A stretch of 64,000 nucleotides of DNA from Gemmatales bacterium (GCA_041640595.1 JBEPZY010000008.1:130773-194772); one strand, 5' to 3'; positions 1,162-59,658 are shown, counted from the first letter of the stretch. Numbers and translations are program-made. Notes: generated by a model from the sequence alone, not told the origin.

Positions 1162-1284
1162 CTGGCCAAGCCCGGACCGAATGCGCTGTGCTCCATGCTA
1201 ACGGCTCCAAGCCGCTTCCCGCATAGTGCGTTTGGTTACGCTGGACAAGCCCAGACCGAATGCGCTGTGCCCATGCCGACGGCT
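1162..1284. repeat. Pair of ~45-bp direct repeats (40/45 identical) separated by 34 bp
   Basis: CTGGCCAAGCCCGGACCGAATGCGCTGTGCTCCATGCTAACGGCT at 1162-1206; variant copy at 1241-1284. Confidence 0.9.
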
Positions 1285-1708
1285 AGCGGAACGCATGTGT
1301 ATGCTTTCCGCAGCCAGATTGCCTGGTAAGAGGGGAACAATCCGATAACCCGATGCTGGGAACAGCCGAGCGAGCGGACGAAAACAAAGGAGAACCGGTG
1401 GCCCGGCAGTAACAAACCAATTTGCCCAGCAACAAGATAATGACCCGATACTGGAAACCCTGCCGTTCACGGCAATCCTGGCTTCGATTCGACCGGTGAC
1501 ACCGGGGGCAAAATTACAACTGGCGAATTTGTCATGCGCTTGCTGCGACCAAAGTTTTGCAGCGGCAGGTTGCGCCCGCGACACCGAGTTTCCGACCAGC
1601 GCTTCGGTCAAGGTGAGGACCGGCACGCGCACGCTGTCTAAAGCGTTGCGCCCGGAGAAGTAAGGTATCCGCCAGTGTTTCGCCGGCAGCAATCAATGGC
1701 CGGACGCA

Positions 1709-2797
1709 TCAGTCGGGTTGGTTTTCGATAGCCTGGACGACAAGGTCGCCGACTTCGCTGGTGGTATAGCCCATTTGTCCCGCGGCCATGCTCTTGAGTT
1801 TGTGAGCGGTTACAAAAGCGACGGCCTGTTCGACCCGTTGCGCGGCCTTTTTCTCGCCCAGAAACTCGAGCATCATTTTCAGGGCCAGGATAGCGGCCAG
1901 GGGATTAATTTTTCCCGTGCCGGTGTATTTCGGTGCGGAACCACCCATCGGTTCGAACATACTCGTGCCATTCGGGTTGATGTTCGCACCAGCGGCCACT
2001 CCCAGGCCACCCTGCAAAATGGCCGCCAAGTCCGTGATGATGTCGCCGAACATGTTTTCGGTAACGATGGTATCGTACCACTCCGGATTTTTGACCATCC
2101 ACATACAGCAAGCGTCCACGTGGTTGTAGTCGGTCTTGATATCGGGATATTGTTGAGCGAGTTCCTGAAACACACGCCACCAAAGATCGTGTGCGTAGGT
2201 GAGCACATTGGTCTTGAGGACGAGGGTGAGTTTTTTCTGGTCGTTACGTTGGCGGCAAAATTCAAAAGCGTACCGCAGACAACGTTCCACTCCTTGCCGG
2301 GTATTGATGAGTTCCTGAGTTGCTACTTCCCAGGGCGTGCCCTTGTGCAGGAATCCGCCGGCACCGCAATAAAGGCCTTCGGTGTTTTCGCGGATGATAA
2401 CGAAGTCAATATCCTCGGGGCCTTTGTTTTTGATGGGCGTTTCCACGCCTGGATAAAGTTTGACCGGTCGGAGGTTGATATACTGCTGAAACTCGAAGCG
2501 AATCCGCAGAAGCAAACCGCGTTCGAGAATTCCCGGAGGCACATCCGGATGGCCAACTGCTCCCAGATAAATGGCTCGGAATTGCCCCAGTTCACGCAGC
2601 ACCGAGTCGGGCAAAACCTCACCGGTTCGCAAATACCGCTCACCACCGAGATCGTATTCGACGGTTTCGTAGGTAAAACCTTCCCGCCGCGCCACCGCTT
2701 GCAAGACCTTCAGGCCTTCGCGCACCACTTCGGGGCCGGTACCGTCGCCACCAATGACTGCAATGCGATAATGCCGCATCTGCTGCGATCCTCCCAT
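1709..2797 (-). CDS. leuB: 3-isopropylmalate dehydrogenase
   Basis: IAVIGGDGTGPEV, NLRPVK, RENTEGLY, NMFGDIITD and FEPMGGSAP motifs; the start may be the second Met (MRHYRIAV). Confidence 0.88.
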   Translation of the reverse strand: MGGSQQMRHYRIAVIGGDGTGPEVVREGLKVLQAVARREGFTYETVEYDLGGERYLRTGEVLPDSVLRELGQFRAIYLGAVGHPDVPPGILERGLLLRIRFEFQQYINLRPVKLYPGVETPIKNKGPEDIDFVIIRENTEGLYCGAGGFLHKGTPWEVATQELINTRQGVERCLRYAFEFCRQRNDQKKLTLVLKTNVLTYAHDLWWRVFQELAQQYPDIKTDYNHVDACCMWMVKNPEWYDTIVTENMFGDIITDLAAILQGGLGVAAGANINPNGTSMFEPMGGSAPKYTGTGKINPLAAILALKMMLEFLGEKKAAQRVEQAVAFVTAHKLKSMAAGQMGYTTSEVGDLVVQAIENQPD

Positions 2798-3010
2798 GCT
2801 CTAAGCCCGATGTTGCCTTGGTCGTGCTGTGCTCAAATTAGCCACCCACAATCTCCGGCAACTGTCCATGCATCACTGGCCACCGCTGACGGCACGATCG
2901 AACCACGCGATTGGCCGCCTATCGCCGAGGGCAGTTCCGGTTGCGTTTGCGCTTGTCTAGCATATTGATAGCATACCACAGGTAGGAATCCGAGCCGAGG
3001 GAATTTCGTT

Positions 3011-4027
3011 ATGATAGCGACAGCAACTGGCACCACAAATAGACGGAATGGGCTGCGCGTAAGTGTGGTGGCATTATTGCTTATTCTTACAGCAGGTTGT
3101 GGACGCGAGCCTGTCTCGCACGAATCGCCAAACGCGACACGCAATTTGTCCGGCCCGACCACCGGTGCCACGATCCAGCAACCCAGAACCGAAGCCCCAC
3201 CAGCGTTCGACATCGAGGCAGTGCTGACCAGCATCCCAGAGGATACGGCAACCCTGCGACAACGGCTCCGGGAAGAACTGGATGTGAACTTTACCTGGTA
3301 CGAGCGGGACGATGGCAAGGTACTGATAGCTTCACTGGGCTTCAACAAATCCCTGCAAGACAAAGACCTGATTGCTCTGGCCGGTCTGGAAGGCCCGCTG
3401 GAAGTTTCGCTAACGAGCACAGCCATTACCGACGCAGGACTGGCTTTGCTGGCGCGGATGCGTGCCACCGAACGACAGGGACGCCCACTCCTGGCCGAGA
3501 TTCACCATCTTTATCTCAACGCCACGCGGATCAGTGACCGTGGCTTGCCTCACCTGGCGGCGTTCGGCACGTTGCGAACACTCGACCTGAGCGATACCCA
3601 GGTCACCGATGCGGGCCTGTCCCATCTGGCGCGATTGTCGCAACTGCAACGATTGTTCCTGTCCCGAACCCGGATGACCGGTTCTGGTTTGGTGCACCTG
3701 CAATCGCTGTCGGCCTTGCGAGAACTGGATTTGACGGGTACTGCTTTAGACGACACAGGCCTGCAACAGTTGCCTTCGCTCCCGAACTTGCGCAAGCTGG
3801 TGCTGCGCAACACTCGCATTACCGATGCTGGCCTGGATCGGCTCAAGGCTTTGCCGGCTCTGGAGGAATTGGACCTCACTGCCACCGGCATTACGGATGG
3901 CTGTGTTGCCAGCATAAAGGAATTGAAACGGCTGCGACGGTTGCGTATCGTGGATAAAACCAAGCTAACCGAGCGTGGCGCCATACAGCTCCGCCTGGCC
4001 CTGCCCGACTACGTTTACATTGACTGA
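3011..4027 (+). CDS. Exported or lipoprotein leucine-rich-repeat protein
   Basis: Hydrophobic N-terminus with LTAGC lipobox-like motif; 24-aa LxxLxLxxTxITDxGLxxL repeats. Confidence 0.85.
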   Translation: MIATATGTTNRRNGLRVSVVALLLILTAGCGREPVSHESPNATRNLSGPTTGATIQQPRTEAPPAFDIEAVLTSIPEDTATLRQRLREELDVNFTWYERDDGKVLIASLGFNKSLQDKDLIALAGLEGPLEVSLTSTAITDAGLALLARMRATERQGRPLLAEIHHLYLNATRISDRGLPHLAAFGTLRTLDLSDTQVTDAGLSHLARLSQLQRLFLSRTRMTGSGLVHLQSLSALRELDLTGTALDDTGLQQLPSLPNLRKLVLRNTRITDAGLDRLKALPALEELDLTATGITDGCVASIKELKRLRRLRIVDKTKLTERGAIQLRLALPDYVYID

Positions 4028-38278: not shown

Positions 38279-39754
38279 ATGAATCCTCAAACGTACCAGG
38301 AACAGGCTTACCAGGAATGGTTACGTCAGCGGACGCGGCGGCATTTCTTCCGCGATTGCGGTGTCGGGCTGGGCAAAATCGCGCTGGCGTCGCTGTTGTG
38401 CGAAACCCTGGCCGATTCCGGTTCCGCACAAACCTCGCGCAATCCACTGGCCCCGAAACCGCCGCATTTCCCTGCCAGAGCACGAAGCGTCATTTACTTG
38501 TTCATGGCAGGCGGTCCGAGCCAGCTGGAATTGTTCGATTACAAACCGGCCCTGCATCAGTACGACGGTCAGCCTATCCCCGACTCATTTCTGCAAGGCA
38601 GGCGGTTTGCTTTCATGGATTCGTTTACCAGGGAAAAACCCCGTTTGCTGGCCGCCCGCCGAAAATTTTTCCGTGCTGGTCAATGCGGCGCCTGGATCTC
38701 GGAGTTGCTGCCGCAGATCGCCCAAGTCGTGGACGAACTGGCCATTATCAAGACCGTGCAGACTGAGGTGTTCAACCACGGCCCGGCCAAGCTGTTTGTC
38801 AATACCGGCACAGCGCAGTTCGGTCGGCCCAGCATGGGGAGCTGGATTACTTACGGACTGGGAAGCGAAGCGAACGATCTGCCCGGCTTTGTTGTGCTGC
38901 AATCCGGTCCCCGGGGGCCACGCGGTGGTGCGACGCTCTGGAGTAGCGGGTTTTTGCCTACCGCCTATCAAGGTGTGCCGTTTCGCAGCGTCGGTGAGCC
39001 TGTGCTGAACCTCAATAACCCGCCCGGCATCTCAGCGGCTCGACAAGCCGACACGATCGAACTCATCCGTGCTCTCAATGCCACCCGCCTGGGCGCGGCA
39101 GGCGATCCGGAGATCGCTACCCGTATTGCTGCCTATGAAACAGCCTTCCGCATGCAAACCAGCGCTCCGGAACTGATAGACGTTTCCCGCGAATCAGCCG
39201 AAACTCTGCGCCTGTACGGTGTCGAACCGGGCAAACCGAGTTTCGCCTACAACTGCTTGCTGGCTCGCCGACTGGTGGAGCGGGGCGTTCGCTTCGTGCA
39301 ACTGTACCATACCGACTGGGATCATCACGGCGGACCGGGAGCCGACCTGGGCGCGGCTTTAGAGAAGGTCTGCCGCGAGGTGGACCGCCCCATCTATGCC
39401 CTCATCACCGACCTGAAGCGCCGCGGCTTGCTCGACTCCACGCTGGTGATCTGGGGCGGTGAGTTTGGCCGCACTCCGATGGGCGAAAAACGCGAAACCG
39501 TCGGCCGCAACCACCACATCGAAGCCTTCACGATGTTCCTGGCGGGTGGCGGCGTGAAAGGCGGTATCACTCTGGGCGAGACGGACGAATTCGGCTTCGC
39601 TCCCGTTCGGGATCCCGTCCACGTCCATGACATCCAGGCCACCGTCCTGCACCTGCTCGGCCTGGATCATAAACGTCTGACTTTCCGATTCCAGGGCCGC
39701 GAGCATCGCCTCACCGACATCGGTGGCCGCGTTCTGAACGCCGTGCTCGCTTAG
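38279..39754 (+). CDS. DUF1501 protein (Tat-like RR motif)
   Basis: TRRHFF, FMAGGPSQLELFD, LLARRLVERGVRFVQL, WDHH and GEFGRTP. Confidence 0.93.
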   Translation: MNPQTYQEQAYQEWLRQRTRRHFFRDCGVGLGKIALASLLCETLADSGSAQTSRNPLAPKPPHFPARARSVIYLFMAGGPSQLELFDYKPALHQYDGQPIPDSFLQGRRFAFMDSFTREKPRLLAARRKFFRAGQCGAWISELLPQIAQVVDELAIIKTVQTEVFNHGPAKLFVNTGTAQFGRPSMGSWITYGLGSEANDLPGFVVLQSGPRGPRGGATLWSSGFLPTAYQGVPFRSVGEPVLNLNNPPGISAARQADTIELIRALNATRLGAAGDPEIATRIAAYETAFRMQTSAPELIDVSRESAETLRLYGVEPGKPSFAYNCLLARRLVERGVRFVQLYHTDWDHHGGPGADLGAALEKVCREVDRPIYALITDLKRRGLLDSTLVIWGGEFGRTPMGEKRETVGRNHHIEAFTMFLAGGGVKGGITLGETDEFGFAPVRDPVHVHDIQATVLHLLGLDHKRLTFRFQGREHRLTDIGGRVLNAVLA

Positions 39755-39855
39755 TGCATCGTCCAGCGATACTTACCCGCGCACATACTTCGGCCTGACA
39801 ACTCTCCGGACTCTGGGGTGCTCCCTTAGTGCATCGTCCAGCGATGCCCGCCCGC
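39743..39855. repeat. 38-bp direct-repeat pair (33/38) with 37-bp spacer, duplicating the DUF1501 stop codon
   Basis: 39743-39780 versus 39818-39855; 28-bp core GTGCTCSCTTAGTGCATCGTCCAGCGAT. Confidence 0.9.
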
Positions 39856-40033
39856 TGCTCATTCACCGCCTCGCCTGGCCTCCTGCCCGAACCAGCGGAG
39901 GCGGTAACATTCTCACCGCCCGTCATGGTGAGCCAGTCCTGGCCAATTATGGCGATAATTAAAACGCCACTGTCCTGAGCTGAGCCGGTCTTTCATACAA
40001 AAACCGCGGCCGGGCCATTAGCGGGGTTGAGCA

Positions 40034-40288: not shown

Positions 40289-40519
40289 CAAAGCCATGTT
40301 CTGTCAAAAAGCGTTTCGGCGAACACGCCCGCGCTGTTCATTGCAACCGGCCGGGCGACGGTAGCTGTTGCGGTTCAGTCAACTGGGGCAGAATTGGTGA
40401 ACGGGAAGTTTCCTTGCCGCGTGGGGTTCAGCGTTTGCTGCTGTCCGGTTAGACAACTGGTGTATCGTCGAGCCAGAAAGCGGGCAATTTAATAACGGCG
40501 ATCATCTCCGGAGAGAGCC

Positions 40520-44050: not shown

Positions 44051-44067
44051 TAACTGCTGAACGCTGC

Positions 44068-44523: not shown

Positions 44524-44786
44524 GGGTCATCTCACTGTTTTGGATCTCGTCATGTTGCAGGATGTTCCTCAGCACAAACGCATGTATTTCTGGACTTCTA
44601 TTTTGCTGTCGTGGAATTCGCCGTGCCGGCACAGGCATACTCTTGTAACCCGCACCGTGCCAACCGATTATAGCCCAAACTATAGCTTTGTGAATGCGAA
44701 CCGCATTTCACTTCCACAGTTTTTAGCAAAGCGGGCTACGTCATAGCACCTCGCCAGTAAATGGTATATGGAAGGTTCTAACTTTC

Positions 44787-45090
44787 CTGAGTTATCCCCA
44801 GTTTTGACGGGAGCTCCACTGGACGTAAGGCATCGGGACAATAACGGTTACGTCGGATGGCCTGTTTTTCCGGGAGCACTTGGAACACGCAAGGCCTGCC
44901 TGTGCTTCCTTAGGTTTTGGCAAAGGGCCGCCGACCGCTAAGCACGCAGTTGGCTGGAGTCGGCTTGGCTGCACGCTGCAATGATGTGAGCGTCCGGTGC
45001 GTGAGGCCGGAAAAATAGGAGTTTTCGTAAGCTCTTGTCTGGGCGTGTGTTGCGAAATCCCTGCCCTTACCAAAACTGGGGATGGGTCAG
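44787..45090. mobile_element. 304-bp non-autonomous IS4-family (IS10-like) element (MITE)
   Basis: Terminal IRs CTGAGTTATCCCCAGTTTTG / CTGACCCATCCCCAGTTTTG (17/20); flanking 9-bp direct repeat CTAACTTTC (44778-44786) / CTAATTTTC (45091-45099); no transposase. Confidence 0.78.
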
Positions 45091-45634
45091 CTAATTTTCG
45101 GCCCGAAGCGTTGGCAGTCCGCATCATTTCGGAATGCGGCCAGCAGAACTGCGGTCAATCGTCTGGCTTGGCGGTCAGCAGTTTTTTGCCAGCCCCAAAG
45201 AAACAAAAAGGCCGTTCTTCCACACTCCAGTTGCCTCCGAAGAACAGACCATCGGAAGTAACCCCCAGCAGCGCACGGCCTCGCGTCTAGCCGTGTCCCT
45301 GTCAGAACTGGAAATGAGCAGTCTTGAGCCTGTTTTGCAGTGGTGATGGAGGCGGTTCGTGGGGCCGAATTCCGAACAGGCCACACTGCGTGGTTACGCT
45401 CGCCCTGTAAATAAACGCTTTGGGTCTAAGTATCTGCCGCAAAGGAGGACACTGCGCAAGGCGGGAGATGCGCCCTCAAGGTAAATAAACGCTTATCTGC
45501 CGCAAAGGGGAGTGCGAAAGAAACCGCTGCGGCAGGGGGAGAATGCGGGAGGAAGCGCTTGGCGTCACGGAGGCAGTTTAGCGCATGTGTTCCGAGCGGC
45601 GTCGGCAGGAGTTCGAAAACTCAATATGCCGGGT

Positions 45635-46471: not shown

Positions 46472-46474
46472 AGA

Positions 46475-49810: not shown

Positions 49811-49846
49811 AGCCAGACTGTTAGCGCTCCTCGCCGCCAGACCCCC

Positions 49847-50140: not shown

Positions 50141-50265
50141 ATCTTGCCTGCACCCTGGCTATCTCTCAAGCCGCACACTTGCAATCTGTGCTTATTTCTT
50201 CCGTGGACTCCACGGCTGCACCCGGGCTACCTCTCAAGCATACGCCCGCAGCTCCCCTTCCCTGT

Positions 50266-50466
50266 CTACTGGCCGCTGCACACGGGCCACTGATAAGCGC
50301 CCACCGATTCCCGGCCATTAATCGCTGACCACTAGTCCCTGGCCACTGGCCGCTGATCACCGTCCACCGGTCACCGACCACCGCCTGTCAGCCAGCGATC
50401 ACCTTTCACCGATTCCCGGCCACTGTTCACTGACCACTGGCCACTAGCCACTGATCACTGGCCACT
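50266..50466. repeat. Heptamer array C
   Basis: CACTGACCACTGGCCACTAGCCACTGATCACTGGCCACTG at the right end, degenerate units leftward. Confidence 0.85.
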
Positions 50467-50793
50467 GCATGATTGGCGGTGTTGCCCGCCGTGCTGTGCC
50501 AGGCTTGTCGCCGTTCCGCTCAGAGGATTCCCCATTGATTGATTATATGACACCCGCACATTGGCTCGCTACAATGGCTTCAGGGGAATGGTATTTCATC
50601 GCGGTTAGCCAAAGCATCACGCACCAGGCTGACCGACTGCCTGAGCAATTGCGGGTCAGCAAGATGCGCTAATGGTCGCTGAGGCGAACGTCGGCCCACA
50701 GCGGAAGTGGCATCTCTCAACCAACGTGGCTGCGGGAGGAGTCGCGTAACGCTGTGGGTGTCAAAAACGGATAGAGTTGCCGGAGGGGGAGCG

Positions 50794-52854
50794 ATGATGG
50801 GGCGAAGTGCGGGCGAGAATACGGTAAACGAAACGGCGGGCACCGGGCCAACCGTGTCCGATCCCGGCGATGGCAGTGCGATGGTCGGAAATGCGTCAGG
50901 AGCAAACCCGCAGGTATCGCCTCCAGTAAATGTGCCACCGGCAAACGCAGACGGTTCGCCGTGTTCCGATGCAAGCACGGCAACTCTCAGCAGCGCTGCA
51001 GATGCGAGGCAATCCGCTACCGACTCGACCGGAAGTTCCGATGCAAGCACAACCGCTCCTGGCAACGCCGCTGCTGGACCGGAAGCGTGGGTTTCGCCGG
51101 CACGCTCGGGTTCGGGGTGGGGCGAATCGTCTTCGTCGGCAGGTGGGCACAGTGGTGCCGAGTCCGCAACGTGGGGCCATTCAACCGGCGGCGAGTCACG
51201 TCCGCAATCACCGATGCACGCTGTGGCGCGAACGCTCGCGTCGGCGACCGGGGTGTCTGCAACTTTCGGAATCGGCCAGACGAACGCCCTTGCCGTGAGT
51301 CCCGGCGTCGGTTCCAGTCAGGCCAATGTCGGCTCGGCTGCTGTGCAAGCGTGGAGGCGCTGGCGGTGGTTTGTTGTGCTGGGCATTATCGGGCTGACGA
51401 TTGCGGTGCCCGCGTTCCCATTGGTTTGGGTAGTGATGATGGGGAAGGCGGAACTGGCCCGCGCCATTGCCGAAACCGACGCCCTCGATCCCAACTGGCG
51501 CTGGGAAGATATTCGGGCTGCTTATTCTCAAATTCCGCGGGACCCAAACGGCTGGCCTTTGATTGAAGAAATCTACCGGCGCTTTGACCAAAAGTTTGTA
51601 ACTCACTTGGGACACCTCATCAACGGCCACAGATCAGAGATTCGAGTGGTTCGCGGTTTATCTCCAATCTTTTTCGATATTTTCCCGCCAAGGGATGAGC
51701 CGCTCACCGAGCAGTGGCACGGCCAGCTGAAGTCATATCTCGAAGCGGACCTTGGAATCTGGGACTTGCTACGCCAGCTACCTCGATATGAGCACATAAG
51801 CCCTCCCCTCGTTGACACTCCTACAGACCGCTGGTGGCTTGAATTCGAAAAATTTCTCGCCGCTGCGAATGCTGTCGCGTTTTTCCATGAGTATTTCCTG
51901 CACGAGCGAAAATCGGACCTTGCCGAGGAGTGCCTGCTTATTTTGACCCATTCTGCGAATACCAGCGAAAGAGCAATTCATGACGCACACGGCCCGTGCA
52001 CCGTCGGCGATAATCCTTGGCTGGTTATGTTTGACTGGCGCAATGCTTTTGTCGCTCGGATAAGGCGCCATCTAGCGCTGACCGAGGTTTCTGCCGAGAC
52101 ATTGGAGAAGTGCCAGCGGCACACGGAGAGGTTGCTGGCCCAGAACGCACTGACACCTCTGGTTCGCTTCCATCGTGCAGCCTTGCACGAAATTTACAGC
52201 TCGGTGAAAGCTGGCAAAATGGACTGGTTTAAGCAGATGCCGGAATCCAACCCTCTCCGGTGTGTTCCAGATCCCCTGGACTTTAGCATCTGGGAAGTGT
52301 CAAAATATCACCTCCGCCGGGGAGTGAAAGTTTTCCTGGACAAAGTGGAACGCAGCACAGCGCCCCTGTTTGCCGACCGCCATCATGCCGAACTCCTGAG
52401 GCAATTGAACCAGCTGCATCGCTTGGCGATTGCATCTCCGGAAGAACAACTGGCCGTATTCAAGTCAGACAGTTTGGCGCCATGTGGGACTGAGCAATGG
52501 TGGGCCGGATATTTCCTGCCCCAACCGCCCCGGAGTGACGAGTTAAAGGACTTATTGTGGTGGCGAGCGGAGTTGCAGACGTTGCGAGTGGCGATAGCGG
52601 CGGAGCGGTATCGGTTGAAGTATGGCCAGTGGCCGGACAAGCTGGAAACCCTGGTGCCGGAATTTCTCGCCGAAGTTCCGGGCGATCCGTTCGACTTGCC
52701 CAATCCGCTCCGGCTGGTGCGTACTGTGGACGGTTTGGTCGTTTACTCCATCGGTCTGAATCTACGAGACGATGGTGGGGATGTATTACTTGATATCGTG
52801 GTGCGGCTTTCCGACCCTTCGCGGCGTGGTCTGACCAGTATGACCCCACCGTAA
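50794..52854 (+). CDS. Hypothetical membrane-anchored protein (Ser/Ala/Gly-rich N-terminus, TM helix, GspG-like C-terminal motif)
   Basis: AAERYRLKYGQWPDKL..LVPEFL..VP.DPF...VYSIG...DDGG; GGAGG RBS before ATG 50794. Confidence 0.75.
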   Translation: MMGRSAGENTVNETAGTGPTVSDPGDGSAMVGNASGANPQVSPPVNVPPANADGSPCSDASTATLSSAADARQSATDSTGSSDASTTAPGNAAAGPEAWVSPARSGSGWGESSSSAGGHSGAESATWGHSTGGESRPQSPMHAVARTLASATGVSATFGIGQTNALAVSPGVGSSQANVGSAAVQAWRRWRWFVVLGIIGLTIAVPAFPLVWVVMMGKAELARAIAETDALDPNWRWEDIRAAYSQIPRDPNGWPLIEEIYRRFDQKFVTHLGHLINGHRSEIRVVRGLSPIFFDIFPPRDEPLTEQWHGQLKSYLEADLGIWDLLRQLPRYEHISPPLVDTPTDRWWLEFEKFLAAANAVAFFHEYFLHERKSDLAEECLLILTHSANTSERAIHDAHGPCTVGDNPWLVMFDWRNAFVARIRRHLALTEVSAETLEKCQRHTERLLAQNALTPLVRFHRAALHEIYSSVKAGKMDWFKQMPESNPLRCVPDPLDFSIWEVSKYHLRRGVKVFLDKVERSTAPLFADRHHAELLRQLNQLHRLAIASPEEQLAVFKSDSLAPCGTEQWWAGYFLPQPPRSDELKDLLWWRAELQTLRVAIAAERYRLKYGQWPDKLETLVPEFLAEVPGDPFDLPNPLRLVRTVDGLVVYSIGLNLRDDGGDVLLDIVVRLSDPSRRGLTSMTPP

Positions 52855-53391
52855 AGCCGTGCAATTCGGTTACCCACGCCCGGCCGACGAATGGTCACAC
52901 CTGGCGGCGGGCAAGGACCCAACGTCGAACCGCAAAGTTCCGTTACCCACGCCCGGCACGGGTTACCTGACAAGCCATCGGTCGAGCGAGCAGAGCCGAC
53001 CAGGGGTTAGTATCGCTCAGCCAGTCGTAATGGAACCGGGTGATGTTCCGCGACAGCCACGTTGAACATGGTTCGGTACCGCCCAGCCAGGGCCATAGCA
53101 TCTCGGCGATCGGTCGAGCCAGGAGAGCCAACGGCGGAACCAAAGTTCGTCCGGTGTGGGTTGCGGCAACCGGAGCTGGGATTGCTCGGCCTGGAGCGGT
53201 GGAGGCAAGGATGCAGTTGCAATATCGGGCGTGGGTTGCGGCAACCGGAGCTGGGCGGCTGCTCTGTGCTGGCGGGTTCTGGCGACATGATGGCCGAAAG
53301 CGGTGAGGGCTTGCCTGAGCGCATCTGACTGGCTGGCAGGAACTGACGCGGTTCAGGCGAACGTCGCCGAGAACAGGCGGGGCTTGCCTGA
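52850..53391. repeat. Three consecutive, mutually unrelated direct-repeat pairs (periods 73, 75, 73 bp)
   Basis: GTTACCCACGCCCGGC at 52869 and 52942; GTGGGTTGCGGCAACCGGAGCTGGG at 53156 and 53231; GGGCTTGCCTGA at 53307 and 53380. Confidence 0.88.
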
Positions 53392-53605
53392 AGGGGCTTA
53401 GTTTTTTACAAAGTGGACGACTCCAATCGCATTTGCGGTCCCGGCTGTAAAAGGTGCAATCCACACCGTCAGCGTCGCACCAGGTAATGCTTCGGGCCAA
53501 GAAAAGTCGGCTGGGAGCAAGTGCTACGCGGGCGGTGCAGGTCGTGCCTGTCAGTCCGGCGATGGGATTCGTCGGCCGATAGACCTCTGGTAGGAGAAAC
53601 TTCCG

Positions 53606-54337
53606 ATGCGAAACTTGCTGGCACCGTGTCTGGCGGAACTGGTCGGTGTATTTTTCCTGACCTTTCTGGGAGGTGGAGCAATTTGCGTGAACGAATTGCT
53701 TCCGGAAGGGCAGAAGATCGGCTTGATCGGTATTGCCCTGGCACACGGGCTGGCGCTATCCATCGGCGTAAGTGCCAGCATGAACGTTTCCGGCGGGCAC
53801 CTCAACCCGGCGGTAACCATCACGATGTGGGTGTACGGGCAAATTGACACCATGCGAGCAGTGTACTATGTGATTTTCCAGCTACTGGGAGCCTTGCTGG
53901 CTGGGGCATTGCTGGCGCTGGTGTTCGGCTGGTCGGCAGCGTTGACCCAGGCCGGACTTGGTACGCCGCACGTCGGTTTGCACAATCTTTTCAACGTCGG
54001 GGGCTGGCAGGAATACCTGATGGCGACAGCCATTGAGATTGTGCTGACCGCGCTGCTGGTGGCGAGCATTTTCGGAACGGCGGTGGATCCGCGGGCACCC
54101 AAAATCGGTGGCTTCGGCATTGGGTTGACGGTGATGGCGGACATCCTGGTCGGCGGACCGCTCACCGGAGCGGCGATGAATCCCGCGCGAGCACTCGGCA
54201 CCGCAGTTTGGGAAGCAGCTCTGAAACCGGGCTTCGGTGTGCTCGCCGATCACTGGGTTTACTGGGTCGGCCCGATTATCGGGGGGATTCTCGCGGGTGG
54301 TATCTATATCAACTACATTCTGCCGGAAAAAAGCTGA
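53606..54337 (+). CDS. Aquaporin (MIP family)
   Basis: SGGHLNPAVT and GAAMNPAR NPA boxes; HWVYWVGP. Confidence 0.95.
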   Translation: MRNLLAPCLAELVGVFFLTFLGGGAICVNELLPEGQKIGLIGIALAHGLALSIGVSASMNVSGGHLNPAVTITMWVYGQIDTMRAVYYVIFQLLGALLAGALLALVFGWSAALTQAGLGTPHVGLHNLFNVGGWQEYLMATAIEIVLTALLVASIFGTAVDPRAPKIGGFGIGLTVMADILVGGPLTGAAMNPARALGTAVWEAALKPGFGVLADHWVYWVGPIIGGILAGGIYINYILPEKS

Positions 54338-54342
54338 AACCG

Positions 54343-54457
54343 CCGGCCACGAATCAGTGAACACTGGCACCGCTCGCCGACCATTCGCTACGTATCACGA
54401 GTGCCTGGCTACCGGCCACTGACCACTACCCACTAATTACTGGCCACTGACCACTGA
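54343..54457. repeat. Heptamer array D
   Basis: CCGGCCACTGACCACTACCCACTA...CTGGCCACTGACCACTGA. Confidence 0.8.
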
Positions 54458-54490
54458 ACGCGGGCCATCGGATAGCGCTCGACGCCCACT

Positions 54491-57400
54491 ATGAACAGAA
54501 GTCCCTCGGTGTTGGCGGAAAAAAACGATGCAGGGGAGGTTGTTTTGACCCCCGAACGTTTGGCCGGGGAAAACGCTACCCACGACCGCGTGATCTGGGT
54601 GCTGGCAGTGCTGAGTCTGGCGGTGGTGTCGGCGTATCCGGTGGGACCGGGCAATCCGGATGCCCGGCTCTACCTGGCTGCCGGTCGGCTCATCGTGCAG
54701 GGCGAATATCGTTATGGGAGCGACCCGTTCGCTTACGGCGAACACGCACCGCAAGGCTGGGCGAGTCTGCAACGTTTTCTGGGCTTGCTGGGGCTGGGGC
54801 CGAAACAACTCGACTGGGTCAACAGCGGCTGGCTGGCCGAGGTGTTTCTGTATGCCTGGTACGTTGCTGGCGGGGGAGCCGGACTGGTTGCGTTGCGGGT
54901 CGCCCTGGTGCTGGTCATTAGCCTGCTGGTATGGCGAATGTGCGAGCGACAGGCGGAGTTGCAACAACAGTCGCCCGCGGCGCCGCGTGGCGGTCCCGGA
55001 CCCGCCACGCCAGCGGCCAAACGCCTGGTCGCGGTACGTCGCTTCGCTGCCTGGTGGACGGTGGGCCTGTTGCTGGCCGGACTGGTCTGGTCTGTCGGTT
55101 TGCACATTCGGCCGGAATCGCTGGGCGTGTTGTATCTGGCGGTGGCATTAGCGTTGTTGGCTCAAGGGCCGGTGAGCAGTGGCCCCTGGTCAATGGCCGA
55201 GTCGGAGTCGCGGTGGAGACGGTGGTGGTATGCGGCACTGCGTTGGTCGCGCGGACGCTTGTGGTTTCTGCTACCGCCTTTGTTTGCACTCTGGGCCAAC
55301 TGCGACAGCAGCGTTTTGCTCGGACTGGCCGCGCTGCTGCTGTACTGGTTGGGTCAGCATTTACAGGTCATGTGGGGGCCGGACCGCTACGCACGGGATG
55401 TTTTGCTTCACGAGGATCGGCGATTGCTGGGGCGTGTGATCGGTTGGTGTATAGTGGCCATAATGGTCAATCCGTTCCATTTGCACATTTTCGATCCCTC
55501 GCCGCTGGGATTTCCTGAGGCAGCCGAACTGCTTTATCGCGGCAGTCGGCAGGCGGTCCGGCTGGGAGTTTCGCCGTTCACTGCCGCGTATTTTACCGGA
55601 GCGGATGGGCGATGGGTGGGTTTGAGTCTCGCGGAGTGGGCTTATTACGTGTTAGTGGTGTTCACGGCTGCGGGAATGTGGCTGGGACGGGCCCACTGGC
55701 GGTGGTCCTGGTTTTTGCTGGCGCTAGTGGGATTGATTTTGTCATGTTACTGGTCGCGGTATCTGCCCTGGTTTGCTCTGCTGGCGTTGCCGGCCAGTTT
55801 ACCGGGCTGGCACCACTATCTGGCCCAGCGTTTGGGAGTTTTTCCCACTACCAAACGCCGATCGGTGCTGCTGGGACAACTGGGTCGGCTGGCCGTAGCG
55901 GCGACGGTGCTGGGTTTGATGGTGGCGACACTCTGGCCGCAACCGACCACAGGGACAGCTGCGGGGAGCATCACCCGCCGTGGCTGGGGATTCTCCCTGT
56001 TCGAGGATGCCAGCCTGGAAGCAGCAGCACAAACGACGGCCCACTGGTGGCACAGCGGTAAGCTGCCGGGGCGTGGCTTACACCTGGACTGGCTGAATAC
56101 TTCTGCGTACTGGGCAAACGCCCACCGTTCACAACCTGCCGTCTGGCTCGATATCCGCGCTGGGCTTTTTACGCCGCAAACGGTTCGTGATTTCCTCGAC
56201 GTCGTCGAGGCTCTGGAGAAAACCGGCACCTCGGAAGGGCAGCAACGCCGACTTCGCTTGAACGAACTGCTCCGCAAGTACGACATCAGCTACCTCGTCG
56301 TGGACAGAGACCATCTGGTAGTCCGTTACGATAATCGCGGGAATCAAATGCGTTTCACGCTGTTGCCCTTCCTGCTGGCTGAACGCGATGAGAAAGGGCA
56401 GCCGGTCTGGCAAATGCTCGACTACCTGGATGGAGAAACGTTCTTGCTGGCCTGGACAGGTTCGCCGCATTGGGAGCATCTTCGCACACTGCAATTTTCT
56501 CCGTTGCGGTGCTGGCAACGGGAGGCAGGCTCGGATAACCCGGCCACATCTCCGCCATTCGCGATCAACTCTGTCGGACGAACAGTGGAACCCTGGCGAA
56601 CGTTGCGGCATTACTTCACCGGCCAGCCTCCGCCTGTGCCACTTCCGACCTCTGCGGCTCGCTTTCTTCTGGAAGCATTCCAGCAAACGCGCGAGCCCCG
56701 GTATGTGCAGTTGCGGCAGCAAGCGGAGGCACAAATGCTCTGGGCTGCCCTCATCGCCAATACGGCCATGTTGCCGATGGGCGGAGTTACCCCAGCACTG
56801 GCCCAGCTGGGTACCATCTTCACGGAAGGCTGGCCGGGAGTACCCCGCCTTCCACTTTTTGCTTACCAGCGCGATGCCTTGCTGTGGCTGGCCTGGCGCT
56901 GGTCGAGACAGGGGATTCTGGCCGAACCGCAACAGCCATTCGCCTGGGCGGTATGTTACGATGTCGGTAATCTTCTCGACGCCCATGAAAGTCAGCACAG
57001 CGAGGGGGCTCACCACGAGAGTCGCCTGCTGGCACGAATGTTCTTGTTGCGGCAACTGGCTCGATTACAGCCAGGCATGGCCAATGTGCATCTGGAATTG
57101 GCGCGGCGATTCCTCGAACGCGGTTGCGATGATCTTGCTCTCGCTTCTGCCGAGCAATTCCTGCAACTCTCCGCCGGGTTGGAAGGCGACCAGAGTCAGC
57201 AGCCCGCTTCACGTCTGCAGGAACATCTCGGTTTATCCCTGGAACAACTCCGCAGCCGCGTGCAGGAAGCCCAGGGACGGTTTCAAACCTGGATCGCACT
57301 GCTGGCGCAACCCGGTTGGGTGCAATCCAACCCAGGCGAAGCGTTGTTCCGTGCACGGGAAATGTGGCAGTCGCGGCTGGCCAACACCACGATTACCGTC

Positions 57401-57943
57401 CTGCAGCAGCTCACCCGATCACTTTTGCCACGCCAGGCTGAATTCGCTGATGCAGTTCGGCTTCTCGCCGATGTCTATGTCCAGACCGGCGACGCTGTCG
57501 GTTTACAACGATTGCTCCAGCAAAACTGGGCGGAAGCTGTGTTCGGACGGCAGCGCTACGAATTTCTGCAAGCGCTGGCCGCCGGGGCACTCGGTGACGC
57601 TGCTCAGGAGGCCCGACGCCGGGCCGTCCTCGAAGACCTGCTGCAAAAGCAGGCGGCTGAGCTGTTCCTGCGTGGCGGCATAGCCATGACGCTGGGCAGT
57701 GATCTTGGCCCGGCCGGTAGCGGTTTTTATGGTCTGATGCAGCAGCACCAGGCACTGATGCGTAGCCGCGAACGCATTTACAACCTGCTGGCCATTGCTT
57801 CCGCTGCACTGGAAGACGGCAACATAGCTCAAGCTCGCCAGGCATTCGAGCGGGTTCGCATGATTGCCCCGAAGGAACCGCTGGCAGTCCTCGCCGAACA
57901 TTACCTGCGCGTTCTGCCGGAGACAAGCGGCAATACCCGATAG
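54491..57943 (+). CDS. Large polytopic membrane protein with TPR-like helical C-terminus (GT-C-like N-terminal region possible)
   Basis: D...LAAGR..., DPF, W.N..WL, IRPE, LWAN and NPF motifs; many TM segments; helical repeats. Confidence 0.7.
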   Translation: MNRSPSVLAEKNDAGEVVLTPERLAGENATHDRVIWVLAVLSLAVVSAYPVGPGNPDARLYLAAGRLIVQGEYRYGSDPFAYGEHAPQGWASLQRFLGLLGLGPKQLDWVNSGWLAEVFLYAWYVAGGGAGLVALRVALVLVISLLVWRMCERQAELQQQSPAAPRGGPGPATPAAKRLVAVRRFAAWWTVGLLLAGLVWSVGLHIRPESLGVLYLAVALALLAQGPVSSGPWSMAESESRWRRWWYAALRWSRGRLWFLLPPLFALWANCDSSVLLGLAALLLYWLGQHLQVMWGPDRYARDVLLHEDRRLLGRVIGWCIVAIMVNPFHLHIFDPSPLGFPEAAELLYRGSRQAVRLGVSPFTAAYFTGADGRWVGLSLAEWAYYVLVVFTAAGMWLGRAHWRWSWFLLALVGLILSCYWSRYLPWFALLALPASLPGWHHYLAQRLGVFPTTKRRSVLLGQLGRLAVAATVLGLMVATLWPQPTTGTAAGSITRRGWGFSLFEDASLEAAAQTTAHWWHSGKLPGRGLHLDWLNTSAYWANAHRSQPAVWLDIRAGLFTPQTVRDFLDVVEALEKTGTSEGQQRRLRLNELLRKYDISYLVVDRDHLVVRYDNRGNQMRFTLLPFLLAERDEKGQPVWQMLDYLDGETFLLAWTGSPHWEHLRTLQFSPLRCWQREAGSDNPATSPPFAINSVGRTVEPWRTLRHYFTGQPPPVPLPTSAARFLLEAFQQTREPRYVQLRQQAEAQMLWAALIANTAMLPMGGVTPALAQLGTIFTEGWPGVPRLPLFAYQRDALLWLAWRWSRQGILAEPQQPFAWAVCYDVGNLLDAHESQHSEGAHHESRLLARMFLLRQLARLQPGMANVHLELARRFLERGCDDLALASAEQFLQLSAGLEGDQSQQPASRLQEHLGLSLEQLRSRVQEAQGRFQTWIALLAQPGWVQSNPGEALFRAREMWQSRLANTTITVLQQLTRSLLPRQAEFADAVRLLADVYVQTGDAVGLQRLLQQNWAEAVFGRQRYEFLQALAAGALGDAAQEARRRAVLEDLLQKQAAELFLRGGIAMTLGSDLGPAGSGFYGLMQQHQALMRSRERIYNLLAIASAALEDGNIAQARQAFERVRMIAPKEPLAVLAEHYLRVLPETSGNTR

Positions 57944-58020
57944 TGCCCGGCTGACTGAACGGTCCGTCCAATTTTTCTGATACCGGGTCGCTTCTCCCAA
58001 CTGCCGTGGAGGCTGATGCC

Positions 58021-59007
58021 ATGGACTGGCAAAGCCTTGGGCAAACGCTGTCCTGGCCGGAAGATGTCCTGGTGTGGGCAAGTATTGGCGTTATCGTTGT
58101 GGCACTGGCGTTGCGCGTGGTAGCGCGGTTGTGGCTTCGCTACCGGCCGGATTCCGGCATTTGGGGAGCGGCCCTATTACGGCTGGCTTCCTGGACTGTG
58201 TTGCTGTTGATGCTGGCGATAGTCGGACGGTCCGTGCCTGTCCCGGCGCCGCTGCAAGACTTTCTTGGGCCGGCACTGATTGCATTGTTGATTTTTCTGA
58301 CGGCCCGCACCACCGTCCAGCTGGTCGGTGTCGCACTTCGCCGACAATGGGCCCGCTGGTGGCCCCAACTGCCTCCGGTCACGCTGGCCGACTTCCTGGT
58401 GGCGTTCATCGTGTACACCCTGGCCGAGCTGATGATTTTGCACCAGTTCGGTCTGGCCATCACGCCGCTACTTACCGCTCTGGGAGTTGGTGGACTTGCC
58501 GTAGCCCTCGGTGTGCAGGACACGCTCGCTAATCTTTTTGCCGGGCTGGGCATCACCCTGGCGCGAACGATCCGCCCAGGAGATTATCTGCGCCTGGAAA
58601 ACGGCCTGGAAGGACAGGTGCATGACATCGGCTGGCGCTACGTTACCTTGCGAACTCCGCAGCATACCCTGGTGATTATTCCCAATCTCCGCATGGGCCA
58701 GCTGATCATCACCAATTTCTCGCTTCCTGAGCCACGCATCCTGTGCCCCATTCCCATCACCGTGACTCCAACCGACGCCCCTCAACTGCTGATAGCACGA
58801 ATCGAGCAAACTCTTCTCCAGGCGGCGCAGCAAATTCCCGACGCTCTTCTCGACCCTCCGCCCCGGTGTCGCATCGTCGGCGTCACCGACAAGGGCATGC
58901 TCCAGTTGCAGCTGGAACTCTGGTTACGCACGCCGCAGGCTTACCACGAAGCCGTTCACACTGTTTATCAACACCTCTGCGAAGCTGGTTTTCATTGCCG
59001 GGCGTAA
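58021..59007 (+). CDS. mscS: Small-conductance mechanosensitive channel
   Basis: LGVGGLAVALGVQDTLANLFAG, GD, G.V.DIGWR and IPN. Confidence 0.92.
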   Translation: MDWQSLGQTLSWPEDVLVWASIGVIVVALALRVVARLWLRYRPDSGIWGAALLRLASWTVLLLMLAIVGRSVPVPAPLQDFLGPALIALLIFLTARTTVQLVGVALRRQWARWWPQLPPVTLADFLVAFIVYTLAELMILHQFGLAITPLLTALGVGGLAVALGVQDTLANLFAGLGITLARTIRPGDYLRLENGLEGQVHDIGWRYVTLRTPQHTLVIIPNLRMGQLIITNFSLPEPRILCPIPITVTPTDAPQLLIARIEQTLLQAAQQIPDALLDPPPRCRIVGVTDKGMLQLQLELWLRTPQAYHEAVHTVYQHLCEAGFHCRA

Positions 59008-59065
59008 GCGAATGGCCTGGCAGCGCTCATTCGTCGAGGGAATCGGTGGCGCACGGTGTGTTGCT

Positions 59066-59272
59066 AGTGGCCAGCAACTAGTGGCCGGTGACCAGTGGCC
59101 AGTTGTTGGAGAGTCAGTTAGTGGCCGGTGACTGGTGGCCAGTGGTCAGTTGCCGGAGAGTCAGTTAGTGGCCGGTGAACAGTGGCCGGTGGTTAGTTGC
59201 AGGAGAATCCATCAGTGGATGGTGATCATTGGCTGGTTACCAGTGACGGGTAGTCAGTGGCTGGGAAGTGCT
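59066..59272. repeat. Heptamer array E (GTGGCCA orientation)
   Basis: GTGGCCAG/GTGGCCGG/GTGGTCAG runs; GGAGAGTCAGTTAGTGGCCGGTGA twice. Confidence 0.88.
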
Positions 59273-59345
59273 CGTGGGCAGGGGCTGGAGGTCTGCTGGC
59301 GGAAATCGTTACGGTGAGCGGTCGGATGGTTAAAGTGCGGGGCAG

Positions 59346-59658
59346 GTGTGTACCAGTTGTGCCGATTTTGCGGATTCTGCGACGGGGGTTCAATCCTGGT
59401 TCCACCACGTCTCCCGAACGTGCGTATGCCAGTTGTGCCGATTTTGCAGATTCTGCGGCGTATGCTATATACGAGTAGGCACTCGTTGTGTGCAGGCATC
59501 ACCACCAGGGGAGATTGCCACCTGGAACGTGAATCGGCACGGCGGAGCGTGTCTCGGGACGACACGGCTGCCGGACTTGAGCACAATTGGGCTGGCCTGG
59601 GATTGTCCCCCCCACGCAAAGTGGGAATCGGCACAATACGGCAGCTGGACTTGAGCAC
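59346..59658. repeat. Two direct-repeat pairs (periods 76 and 74 bp)
   Basis: 32-bp core 30/32 at 59353 and 59429; 31-bp 26/31 at 59554 and 59628. Confidence 0.88.

What the first reader, a model, noticed from the sequence alone, without database searches (positions are those of the whole stretch)
1162..59658. Window-wide family of repeat-spacer-repeat micro-units with a ~75-bp period but a different repeat each time: possible natural off-target spacer-integration scars
Seen: about ten intergenic direct-repeat pairs with offsets of 79 (1162), 75 (39743), 74-76 (40364), 74 (45407), 68 (50148), 73 (52850), 75 (53156), 73 (53293), 76 (59353) and 74 (59554). The best-preserved extend to ~35-45 bp around a unique ~32-38 bp insert. 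The repeats are unrelated to one another, many mismatches are transitions (ageing copies), and two duplicate a gene's stop codon. Established: Cas1-Cas2 inserts a ~30-40 bp spacer and duplicates a repeat-length target, and non-canonical off-target integration has been shown experimentally in E. coli. Inference: a ruler-based integrase has repeatedly inserted short DNA into chromosomal intergenic sites, leaving one-spacer 'neo-arrays'. Alternatives are protein-binding sites phased by seven helical turns (~73.5 bp) or a fixed-length duplication process. No cas gene is in this window.
Basis: partly seen in the sequence, partly recalled or inferred. Interest (0 to 1): 0.8.

Follow-up and report, generated by a model that had tools for sequence, protein, structure and literature searches.

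The report
Misplaced CRISPR spacer insertion scars
The scattered repeat-insert-repeat units are scars left when this hot-spring bacterium's two CRISPR spacer-inserting enzymes pasted spacers into ordinary DNA instead of the CRISPR arrays, an error known from laboratory E. coli but fixed here more than two hundred times.

Summary
Of the ten listed pairs, seven are robust repeat-insert-repeat units. Two are marginal (40364, 53293). One (45407) is a tandem-like duplication of another kind.

Outside the real arrays, the genome (4.45 Mb) holds 225 such two-copy units. They fall into two sharp classes, with offsets of 65-68 and 72-76 bp and duplications of 30-31 and 37-38 bp. These figures match the genome's two giant CRISPR arrays:
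- a 30-nt repeat with period 66, next to type I-B cas1-cas2-cas4;
- a 37-nt repeat with period 74, next to cas2-RT-cas1.

Further support:
- The duplicated segments are unrelated to the canonical repeats, but their edges start with G or GT.
- Insert GC content equals that of the real spacers.
- Some inserts trace to the 23S rRNA gene, to a chromosomal locus, and to a small contig that array B targets more than 30 times.
- Seven units have paralogous empty sites with a single copy of the target.

Caveats:
- The units are old. Only 15 of 232 have perfect copies.
- All window units are conserved in strains 1-2% diverged, so no empty site was seen for them.
- 133 kb of a same-genus genome has none.

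This scan reached the same reading before, on other windows of this genome and in other genomes.

The parts
1162..1284 (.). Repeat-insert-repeat unit just behind the phosphofructokinase gene (75-1133). Copies are 1162-1206 and 1241-1284, and the insert is 1207-1240 (34 nt). It is atypical: a 45-nt duplication and an offset of 79.
   Evidence: z 21. The gene is identified by Pfam PF00365. The offset lies outside the 70-77 range of array A, so assignment to the class is probable, not sure.
39743..39862 (.). A-class scar. Copies are 39743-39780 and 39818-39855 (38 nt, 5 mismatches), and the insert is 39781-39817 (37 nt). The first copy holds the stop codon TAG (39752-39754) of the DUF1501 gene, and the second copy repeats it.
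   Evidence: Gene. An X5 contig spanning 39700-43937 without gaps carries the unit.
40364..40460 (.). Marginal pair (23 and 21 nt, two indels, offset 76) upstream of an ECF sigma factor gene (40520-41971).
   Evidence: score 22 against a best shuffle of 20, z 4.1. Not found by the strict scan.
45401..45520 (.). Tandem-like duplication, not a scar of this kind. Copies of 60 and 50 nt lie 10 nt apart and differ by an 11-nt indel.
   Evidence: z 7.6. The architecture is A-B-A-B, not repeat-insert-repeat.
50148..50239 (.). B-class scar, offset 68. The preserved copies are 50148-50171 and 50216-50239 (24 nt, 2 mismatches). It is intergenic, between an ABC-2 permease gene and ORF 50707-52854.
   Evidence: (z 9.4).
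52845..52957 (.). A-class scar, offset 73. Copies are 52845-52884 and 52918-52957, with a 33-nt insert. The first copy holds the stop codon TAA (52852-52854) of ORF 50707-52854.
   Evidence: z 8.8. An X5 contig spanning 51456-54346 carries it.
53150..53255 (.). A-class scar, offset 75. The preserved copies are 53150-53180 and 53225-53255 (31 nt, 2 mismatches). It lies in the 750-bp spacer before the MIP aquaporin gene (53606-54337).
   Evidence: (z 13.4).
53278..53391 (.). Marginal pair, offset 73-75 (26-nt core 53293-53318 and 53366-53391).
   Evidence: score equal to the best of 300 shuffles, z 5.1. One search gives 77% identity.
59346..59460 (.). A-class scar, offset 76. Copies are 59348-59384 and 59424-59460 (37 nt, 4 mismatches), with a 39-nt insert. 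It starts with GT.
   Evidence: z 20.5. It is intergenic between the MscS and GGDEF genes.
59554..59672 (.). A-class scar, offset 74. Copies are 59554-59584 and 59628-59658 (31 nt, 5 mismatches; 47 nt if two indels are allowed).
   Evidence: z 12.2.
44785..45092 (.). One copy of a roughly 308-nt dispersed element (about 10-12 copies in the genome). This copy is an EMPTY site: its 44896-44926 is present once. The copy at C9:75166 has that stretch twice around a 36-nt insert (B class, offset 67).
   Evidence: In one search table 5c, a contig of run X5 laid on this copy goes back from 44926 to 44896 with 36 other letters between.

Best explanation
The units are scars of off-target (non-canonical) spacer integration by the genome's own two adaptation modules.

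Proposed mechanism:
1. A Cas1-Cas2 complex loaded with a 33-40 nt prespacer attacks two phosphodiester bonds on opposite strands of ordinary chromosomal DNA.
2. The two cuts lie a fixed distance apart. The distance is 30 bp for the type I-B module (cas1-cas2-cas4 beside array B, on this same contig about 108 kb before the window). It is 37 bp for the cas2-RT-cas1 module beside array A.
3. Each cut falls preferentially 5' of a G, often GT, as at the ends of the true repeats.
4. Gap repair copies the single-stranded target on each side of the spacer, giving target-insert-target with a period of 66 or 74.
5. Insertions in genes are purged. Those in intergenic DNA or over gene 3' ends survive and drift, mostly by transitions.
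6. Some neo-repeats were used again and grew to 3-4 repeats.

Shown here: the geometry, the match to both arrays, the presence of cas1 and cas2, the edge preference, foreign and self sources of inserts, and filled-versus-empty paralogues.

Inferred: which enzyme did it, the chemistry, and the order of events.
For: Geometry:
- Two offset classes, 65-68 (102 loci) and 72-76 (117 loci), stand over a background below 1 locus per offset.
- Their shapes mirror the arrays' period counts.
- Refined duplication lengths peak at 30-31 (32 of 107) and 37-38 (27 of 125). The canonical repeats are 30 and 37 nt.
- Array spacers measure 35-40 nt (mode 36) and 33-40 nt (mode 37).

Machinery:
- cas1 and cas2 lie beside both arrays, with cas4, cas3, cas5, cas7 and cmr1-6 at array B and a reverse transcriptase at array A.

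Targets and inserts:
- The unit repeats are unrelated to the canonical repeats: mean best identity 14.6 of 37 and 12.2 of 30, equal to random DNA. They are therefore native targets.
- Edges of sharply bounded units begin with G in 38 of 70 (A) and 46 of 78 (B), against a background of 0.29. They begin with GT in 15 of 70 and 19 of 78, against 0.054, with p from 7e-6 to 3e-8.
- Inserts share no sequence with each other, except for 2 pairs of duplicated whole units.
- B-class insert GC is 0.545, real spacers 0.551, flanks 0.588 (p 7e-7). A-class insert GC is 0.578, against 0.570 for real spacers.

Insert-only matches elsewhere in the genome:
- C3:484583 matches the 23S rRNA gene at 33 of 34.
- C3:554031 matches the 23S rRNA gene over 27 nt.
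- C3:643266 matches C1:732923-732955 at 33 of 33.
- C2:407699 matches contig C15 at 31 of 35. At least 30 leader-proximal spacers of array B also hit C15.

Insertion shown directly:
- 7 of 225 units have paralogous empty sites whose gap equals the offset to within 1 bp, with a single 26-41-nt copy of the target (20 nt in one of the two examples for C2:26707). One example is C3:417921 against C8:38078-38570, at 97.5% identity.

Selection, growth and controls:
- 90 of 225 units are fully intergenic, against 7.6% of random placements.
- Neo-arrays of 3-4 repeats carry distinct spacers.
- The units are real DNA: contigs of four other metagenome runs carry the window units.
- Method control: 133 kb of a same-genus genome gives no unit outside its own array.
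Against: - Only 15 of 232 units have identical copies. The mode is 2-3 mismatches, which fits old events or a past burst better than a steady process.
- No empty site was seen for any unit of this window. Strains 1-2% diverged carry them all. Fifteen joints were listed and 10 more were not shown.
- Duplication lengths spread well beyond 30 and 37. The window unit at 1162 has 45-nt copies and an offset of 79.
- The PAM of array B is spacer followed by HGG: G at +2 in 29 of 32 and at +3 in 28 of 32. Two of the three traced B-class protospacers fit it only after a one-base shift, and the third not at all.
- A same-genus genome that has the RT-linked cas1 shows 0 units in 133 kb, where about 6.7 are expected at this genome's density. 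The behaviour is therefore lineage-specific and its cause is unknown.
- Density varies 10-fold between contigs without explanation.
- No experiment links the enzymes to the scars.
Confidence: 0.9

Rival explanations
1. A fixed-length tandem duplication or replication-slippage process makes ~66- and ~74-bp duplications, and the second half of each then decays.
For: One listed pair (45407) does look like a tandem duplication with indels. Some loci elsewhere show whole-period duplications, for example C2:173992 with 116 nt matched at offset 74. Those can be unequal crossing-over of an existing unit.
Against: In the units only 30 or 37 nt is duplicated, and the rest falls to background identity at once. 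Empty paralogues lack both the insert and one copy of the target. Inserts match distant loci such as the 23S rRNA gene, C1:732923 and C15.
Confidence: 0.02
2. The pairs are functional paired binding sites or regulatory repeats phased by about seven helical turns.
For: They lie in intergenic DNA and at gene ends.
Against: Every pair has a different sequence. Two discrete spacings equal the two CRISPR periods. The copies decay by neutral-looking, symmetric transitions. Paralogues do without the second copy.
Confidence: 0.01
3. Another mobile element or integrase (a MITE with a long target duplication, a casposon-like element, or a retroelement) made the insertions.
For: Target duplication around an insert is the mark of transposition in general. 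A stand-alone reverse transcriptase is encoded beside array A.
Against: The inserts share no sequence or terminal repeats. The insert lengths equal the spacer lengths and the duplications equal the repeat lengths of both arrays at once. No other integrase is known to measure 30 and 37 bp (this last point is from recall).
Confidence: 0.03
4. The units are decayed fragments of true CRISPR arrays, or mini-arrays brought in by mobile elements.
For: A few canonical-like repeats do lie outside the arrays: C3:328836 and C3:328903 (67 bp apart), C3:427281, and a variant array on contig C20.
Against: The unit repeats are no more like the canonical repeats than random DNA. Each locus has its own repeat. 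In 7 units the repeat is demonstrably the local target, present once in paralogues.
Confidence: 0.02

Closest known systems
Non-canonical (off-target) spacer integration giving 'neo-CRISPR' loci in E. coli over-producing type I-E Cas1-Cas2 (Nivala, Shipman and Church 2018, Nat Microbiol). The paper itself could not be read. It is known here from passages in 10.1101/148544, PMC7054753, PMC6698737 and PMC11788318, and from recall.
   Same: A spacer-sized insert sits between two copies of a repeat-length stretch of ordinary DNA. The repeats differ at every site. The units can seed new arrays.
   Different: In this genome the events are natural and fixed. There are 225 two-copy units plus multi-repeat loci. 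They were made by two other kinds of module at once (type I-B with cas4, and an RT-linked module). Most are old. The preprint read says natural evidence was only circumstantial, in two other species.
In vitro off-target integration by Pyrococcus furiosus Cas1-Cas2 (PMC6698737; passages read).
   Same: Integration occurs at non-CRISPR sites about a repeat length apart, with preferred G and C bases at the repeat borders. Here G is enriched at both edges.
   Different: That study worked with plasmid DNA in vitro, and its sites shared several features with the repeat. Here no overall likeness to the repeat was found. Only the first one to three bases show a preference.
Ectopic spacer acquisition inside CRISPR arrays of Streptococcus thermophilus (PMC7999890; search listing and abstract start only).
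   Same: Integration away from the leader-proximal repeat.
   Different: That integration is still at canonical repeats inside the array. Here it is at unrelated chromosomal sequence.
RT-associated adaptation modules that take spacers from RNA
   Same: A cas2-RT-cas1 module lies beside a 247-repeat array. One A-class insert matches the sense strand of the 23S rRNA gene.
   Different: Off-target chromosomal insertion by such a module was not found in print in my searches. An RNA origin for the insert is not shown here.

Membership tests
Off-target Cas1-Cas2 spacer-integration scars (neo-CRISPR units) | The duplicated target has the length of the genome's canonical CRISPR repeat. | tested here: met
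   Length modes are 30-31 nt (B class, 32 of 107) and 37-38 nt (A class, 27 of 125). The canonical repeats are 30 and 37 nt. In the empty paralogues the single shared target measures 26-41 nt, and 20 nt in one example. The spread is wide. The window unit at 1162 does not meet this feature (45 nt).
Off-target Cas1-Cas2 spacer-integration scars (neo-CRISPR units) | The insert has spacer length, so the period equals the array period. | tested here: met
   Offset counts of the units mirror the period counts of arrays A and B. Spacer lengths are 33-40 and 35-40 nt.
Off-target Cas1-Cas2 spacer-integration scars (neo-CRISPR units) | The genome encodes cas1 and cas2. | tested here: met
   Two cas1 genes: C8:22581-23348 and C1:358631-359470 (NCBIfam). 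cas2 by Pfam PF09827 at L013:1160-1447 and L014:16212-16526.
Off-target Cas1-Cas2 spacer-integration scars (neo-CRISPR units) | The repeat is local target sequence, not the canonical repeat, and is present once before insertion. | tested here: met
   The unit repeats are no more like the canonical repeats than random DNA. Empty paralogous sites exist for 7 of 225 units. No orthologous empty site was obtained for the window units.
Off-target Cas1-Cas2 spacer-integration scars (neo-CRISPR units) | The inserts come from the same pool as spacers (foreign or self protospacers, with the system's PAM). | tested here: inconclusive
   Sources were found for 5 events: 23S rRNA twice, C1:732923, contig C15, and a partial match inside cas1. 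Insert GC equals spacer GC. The PAM fits only after a one-base shift in 2 of 3 traced B-class cases.
Off-target Cas1-Cas2 spacer-integration scars (neo-CRISPR units) | Integration depends on Cas1-Cas2 activity. | not testable with these tools
   This needs an in vitro or in vivo integration assay.
Canonical CRISPR array | One conserved repeat is shared by all units, beside a leader, usually with three or more repeats. | tested here: not met
   Each unit has its own repeat. Most have two copies only. A minority have 3-4.
Tandem duplication / minisatellite | The whole period is repeated head to tail. | tested here: not met
   Identity drops to background beyond the 30 or 37-nt copy. This feature is met only by the pair at 45407.
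Transposable element with target-site duplication (IS or MITE) | The inserts belong to a sequence family with defined ends. | tested here: not met
   Comparing all inserts against each other gave 7 non-self hit rows. Four are the two pairs of duplicated whole units in both directions, and three are 12-nt chance matches.

The most novel reading that the evidence does not exclude
In this lineage both integrases work without a leader at any G(T)-bounded site of 30 or 37 bp in permissive DNA, and a neo-repeat can become an acceptor again. The neo-arrays with 3-4 repeats and distinct spacers point to this. On that reading the genome is a natural record of CRISPR arrays being born. The RT-linked module may also have written copies of cellular RNA, such as 23S rRNA, into the chromosome. 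That would be a natural retro-insertion route by a CRISPR integrase.
Probability: 0.3. Interest if true: 0.8.

Novelty: new member of a known kind. Interest (0 to 1): 0.62.

Why it matters
Off-target spacer integration is documented mainly for over-expressed E. coli Cas1-Cas2. According to the text I could read, natural evidence was only circumstantial. My four literature searches found no paper describing a wild genome with hundreds of such scars.

This genome offers several things:
- More than 200 natural integration sites for two different adaptation modules side by side. This gives their rulers (30 and 37 bp) and their edge preference (G, GT) without an experiment.
- Evidence that CRISPR adaptation is a real, if mostly purged, source of insertion mutations in intergenic DNA and at gene ends.
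- Neo-arrays of 3-4 repeats, which bear on how CRISPR arrays arise.
- Filled and empty target pairs ready for biochemical tests.

Tried and rejected
- Likeness of the unit repeats to the canonical repeats: none. Observed means 14.6 and 12.2 equal the null means 14.6 and 12.2.
- A single-strand deamination signature in the gapped intermediate. The prediction was an excess of (A,G) and (C,T) copy1/copy2 mismatches. The counts were 260 against 227, which is essentially symmetric.
- PAM at traced protospacers: ambiguous.
- Orthologous empty sites. Same-genus genomes match only coding DNA, at 72-79% identity, so the intergenic sites cannot be aligned.
- Reads of four other metagenome runs laid on window 39700-59699. 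No joint skipping 65-79 bp at any unit appeared among the 15 joints listed (10 more were not shown). The skips of 40 and 69 bp lie in heptad-repeat DNA.
- Inserts against real array spacers: only 12-16-nt matches at chance level.
- Rfam on the whole window: 0 matches.
- PHROGs on 9 ORFs of contig C15: 0 families.
- The Nivala et al. paper could not be read.
- Not tried: searching the window's inserts against phage or plasmid collections. A 36-nt aged query has too little power there.
- Relatives were only sampled: 133 kb of G002, and 176 kb of G004, which gave two weak candidates at offsets 74 and 71.

Full report
**1. The observation**

I printed each locus in rows of one period. Two similar copies flank an unrelated insert, and the row after the second copy shows only background matches. 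The structure is therefore repeat-insert-repeat, not a two-copy tandem repeat.

A local alignment of each pair against 300 shuffles sorts the ten pairs as follows.
- Seven are robust: 1162, 39743, 50148, 52845, 53150, 59348 and 59554 (z 8.8 to 21).
- Two are marginal: 40364 (z 4.1) and 53293 (z 5.1), with scores at or just above the best shuffle.
- One is of another kind: 45407 has 60- and 50-nt copies 10 nt apart and is tandem-like.

The units at 39743 and 52845 include the stop codons of ORFs 38279-39754 and 50707-52854. Pfam places all ten in intergenic DNA or over gene 3' ends. The flanking genes are phosphofructokinase, a DUF1501 protein, an ECF sigma factor, inositol monophosphatase, an ABC-2 permease, a MIP channel, MscS and a GGDEF regulator.

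**2. The whole genome**

The window is C8:130773-194772 of a 4.45-Mb assembly in 42 contigs. A 12-mer autocorrelation showed strong peaks at 65-68 and 72-76 with multiples. Most of that signal comes from two very large CRISPR arrays.

| | Array A | Array B |
|---|---|---|
| Place | C1:359751-377937 | C8:1-21080, plus 27 repeats at the end of C10 |
| Repeats | 247 | 317 on C8 |
| Repeat length | 37 nt | 30 nt |
| Period counts | 74:99, 73:81, 75:37, 72:12, 76:10 | 66:153, 67:95, 65:36, 68:25 |
| Spacer length | 33-40 nt (mode 37) | 35-40 nt (mode 36) |

Array A's repeat is CTCGCAACTTAGACCCCAACCAATAGGGGATTGAAAC. Array B's repeat is GTTTCAATCCCACCGTGGTTCGATTAGTAC as read on the + strand. Read in the sense of the crRNA, both repeats end in ATTGAAAC.

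I then scanned every offset from 15 to 400 for stretches with at least 21 of 24 matches and masked the arrays. That left 3,890 segments in 644 clusters, and I kept the 376 clusters with one offset class. The offset histogram has two sharp peaks:
- 15, 48, 28 and 11 loci at offsets 65-68;
- 8, 36, 36, 29 and 8 loci at offsets 72-76.

Background is 15 loci over offsets 40-64 and 42 over offsets 80-129. The two peaks have the shapes of the two arrays' period distributions.

Of 247 events with offsets 60-82, 232 fall in the two classes (offsets 64-69 and 71-78). After dropping 7 with refined copies longer than 55 nt, 225 units remain: 119 'A' and 106 'B'.

Refined copy lengths peak at 30-31 nt (B) and 37-38 nt (A). 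These are the canonical repeat lengths.

**3. The machinery**

cas1 lies beside both arrays.
- At array B: cas2, a type I-B cas1, cas4, cas3, cas5 and cas7, followed by cmr1-6.
- At array A: cas2, a group-II-intron-like reverse transcriptase, and cas1.

Still, the I-B locus is on the same contig, about 108 kb before the window.

Array B is or was recently active. More than 30 of its spacers hit the 9.6-kb contig C15, nearly all of them at the cas-proximal end. The protospacers are followed by HGG, with G at +2 in 29 of 32 and at +3 in 28 of 32.

**4. What the units are made of**

- The duplicated segments are no more like the canonical repeats than random genomic DNA. They are local sequence.
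- Their edges are not random. Among units with sharp bounds, the first base entering the copy is G in 38 of 70 (A) and 46 of 78 (B) edges, against a background of 0.29. GT occurs in 15 of 70 and 19 of 78, against 0.054. The true repeats end in GTTTC on the lower strand, and array B's repeat also begins with GT. The P. furiosus in vitro study likewise reports preferred G and C at repeat borders (PMC6698737, passages).
- The inserts share nothing with one another, apart from two pairs of duplicated whole units.
- Insert GC content matches the real spacers of the corresponding array: B 0.545 against 0.551, and A 0.578 against 0.570. For B it is below the flanks (0.588, p 7e-7).
- Some inserts match other places over the insert only:
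  - C3:484583 matches the 23S rRNA gene (C5:166219-170885) at 33 of 34.
  - C3:554031 also matches the 23S rRNA gene.
  - C3:643266 matches C1:732923-732955 at 33 of 33.
  - C2:407699 and its copy C3:561426 match contig C15 at 31 of 35. C15 is the element that array B targets.
  - C9:139927 matches part of the I-B cas1 gene at 23 of 24.

**5. Insertion shown directly**

Some units lie in dispersed repeated elements, so other copies of those elements can serve as empty sites. I compared each unit with 250-nt flanks against the genome.

Seven of the 225 units (six events) have paralogues in which the two flanks meet over a single copy of the target. The missing length equals the unit's offset to within one base.
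- The best case is C3:417921 (A class) against C8:38078-38570. The flanks are 97.5% identical, and the 38-nt target is present once.
- C9:75166 (B class, offset 67) has five empty paralogues. One lies in this window, at 44787-45090.
- Independently, the read-laying tool showed a contig of run X5 that goes back from 44926 to 44896 on the window copy, with 36 other letters between (table 5c). That is the filled paralogue seen as a 31-nt duplication plus a 36-nt insert.

**6. Fate and age**

- By a crude ORF map (86% coding), 90 of 225 units are fully intergenic, against 7.6% of random placements. Another 58 overlap an ORF end (36 the 3' end, 21 the 5' end), and 77 lie inside a called ORF, against 80% of random placements.
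- Copies differ by 2-3 mismatches at the mode, and only 15 of 232 are identical. Transitions make up 487 of 826 differences and are symmetric between the copies.
- Contigs from four other metagenome runs, 1-2% diverged, cover the window units without gaps of 65-79 bp. Run X5 spans 39700-43937, 45599-50373, 51456-54346 and 54355-59699.
- The window's units are therefore real DNA, fixed, and older than the split of those strains. No empty site was seen for them.
- Loci with 3-4 copies of a neo-repeat and distinct spacers exist, for example C1:328961, C1:11696, C2:183877 and C2:184206.

**7. Controls and limits**

- The same scan on 133 kb of a same-genus genome (G002:C115, which has the RT-linked cas1 and an array at its end) found no unit outside that array. 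About 6.7 would be expected at this genome's density.
- 176 kb of a genome of another genus in the family (G004) gave two weak candidates.
- The method therefore does not invent units. The load also looks specific to this lineage, though the samples are small.
- Scar density varies from about 0 to 15 per 100 kb between contigs and follows GC content (rho 0.64). I cannot explain this.
- The unit at 1162 is off-size (45-nt copies, offset 79), and I assign it to the class only tentatively.

**8. Comparison with what is known**

The closest known phenomenon is non-canonical spacer integration giving neo-CRISPR loci in E. coli (Nivala et al. 2018). I could not read that paper. I rely on passages in papers that cite it and on recall.

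The preprint read says it is unclear whether such loci arise commonly in nature, and that evidence in two other species was circumstantial. Four full-text searches found no report of a wild genome with hundreds of such scars, and none for type I-B or RT-linked modules in vivo. Supplements were not consulted.

Earlier notes of this scan reach the same reading on other windows of this genome, and by their titles on other genomes. I formed my reading before opening them. The label 'planctomycete' comes from those notes only. 'Hot springs metagenome' is the label of the runs.

**9. Verdict**

The mechanism is a known one, seen here in nature at unusual scale and for two modules at once.

Noticed in passing
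window 43894-44051, 46471-46674, 50272-50465, 54410-54455, 59081-59221, 59746-59886: Intergenic runs of 7-nt units of the form NNNCCAC (TGGCCAC, TGACCAC, CGGCCAC and others). By a strict rule (at least 4 units) the genome has 25 such runs, 7 of them in this window, against 0 in shuffled DNA. Other strains show length changes of 40 and 69 bp there. Two scars elsewhere (C9:62879, C9:139927) used such runs as targets.
   Followed up: partly
window 44785-45092: A roughly 308-nt dispersed element with sharp ends, about 10-12 copies at 70-90% identity and 2-4 times the read depth in metagenomes. It has no Pfam or Rfam match. Several copies carry scars (C9:75166, C2:26707, C4:199447).
   Followed up: partly
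G000 contig C15 (locus L017, 1-9585): A 9.6-kb contig of 49.8% GC is hit by more than 30 spacers of array B, nearly all at its cas-proximal end and mostly on one strand. The PAM reads HGG after the spacer (5'-CCD in crRNA sense). None of its 9 ORFs matches a PHROG family. It is probably an unknown virus or plasmid undergoing primed adaptation.
   Followed up: partly
G000 C3:328729-328960: Two degenerate copies of the canonical array-B repeat, 67 bp apart, sit between copies of a neo-repeat. A canonical-like repeat-spacer-repeat appears nested in a scar.
   Followed up: no
G000 C20:1208-1580: A third, small array of 6 repeats (period 67-70) with a variant of the array-B repeat, on a 4.7-kb contig.
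   Followed up: no
G000 C5:166219-170885 (locus L016 6220-10886): The 23S rRNA gene spans 4,667 nt against a 2,925-position model, so it carries long insertions.
   Followed up: no
whole genome, 100-kb bins: Scar density is very uneven. It is 7-15 per 100 kb on C2, C3, C4 and C9, and about 0 on C1:500-900 kb, C6 and C7. It correlates with GC content (rho 0.64) and only weakly with the intergenic share.
   Followed up: partly
window 21799-22002: Repeats with 18-nt and 102-nt periods (GCNCCGTGGCA-like units) inside overlapping ORFs. Probably a coding repeat.
   Followed up: no
G000 C12:15259, C3:358501, C3:148268, C2:380408: A minor recurrent offset of 88-93 bp between direct repeats at several loci. 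It is unrelated to either CRISPR period.
   Followed up: no
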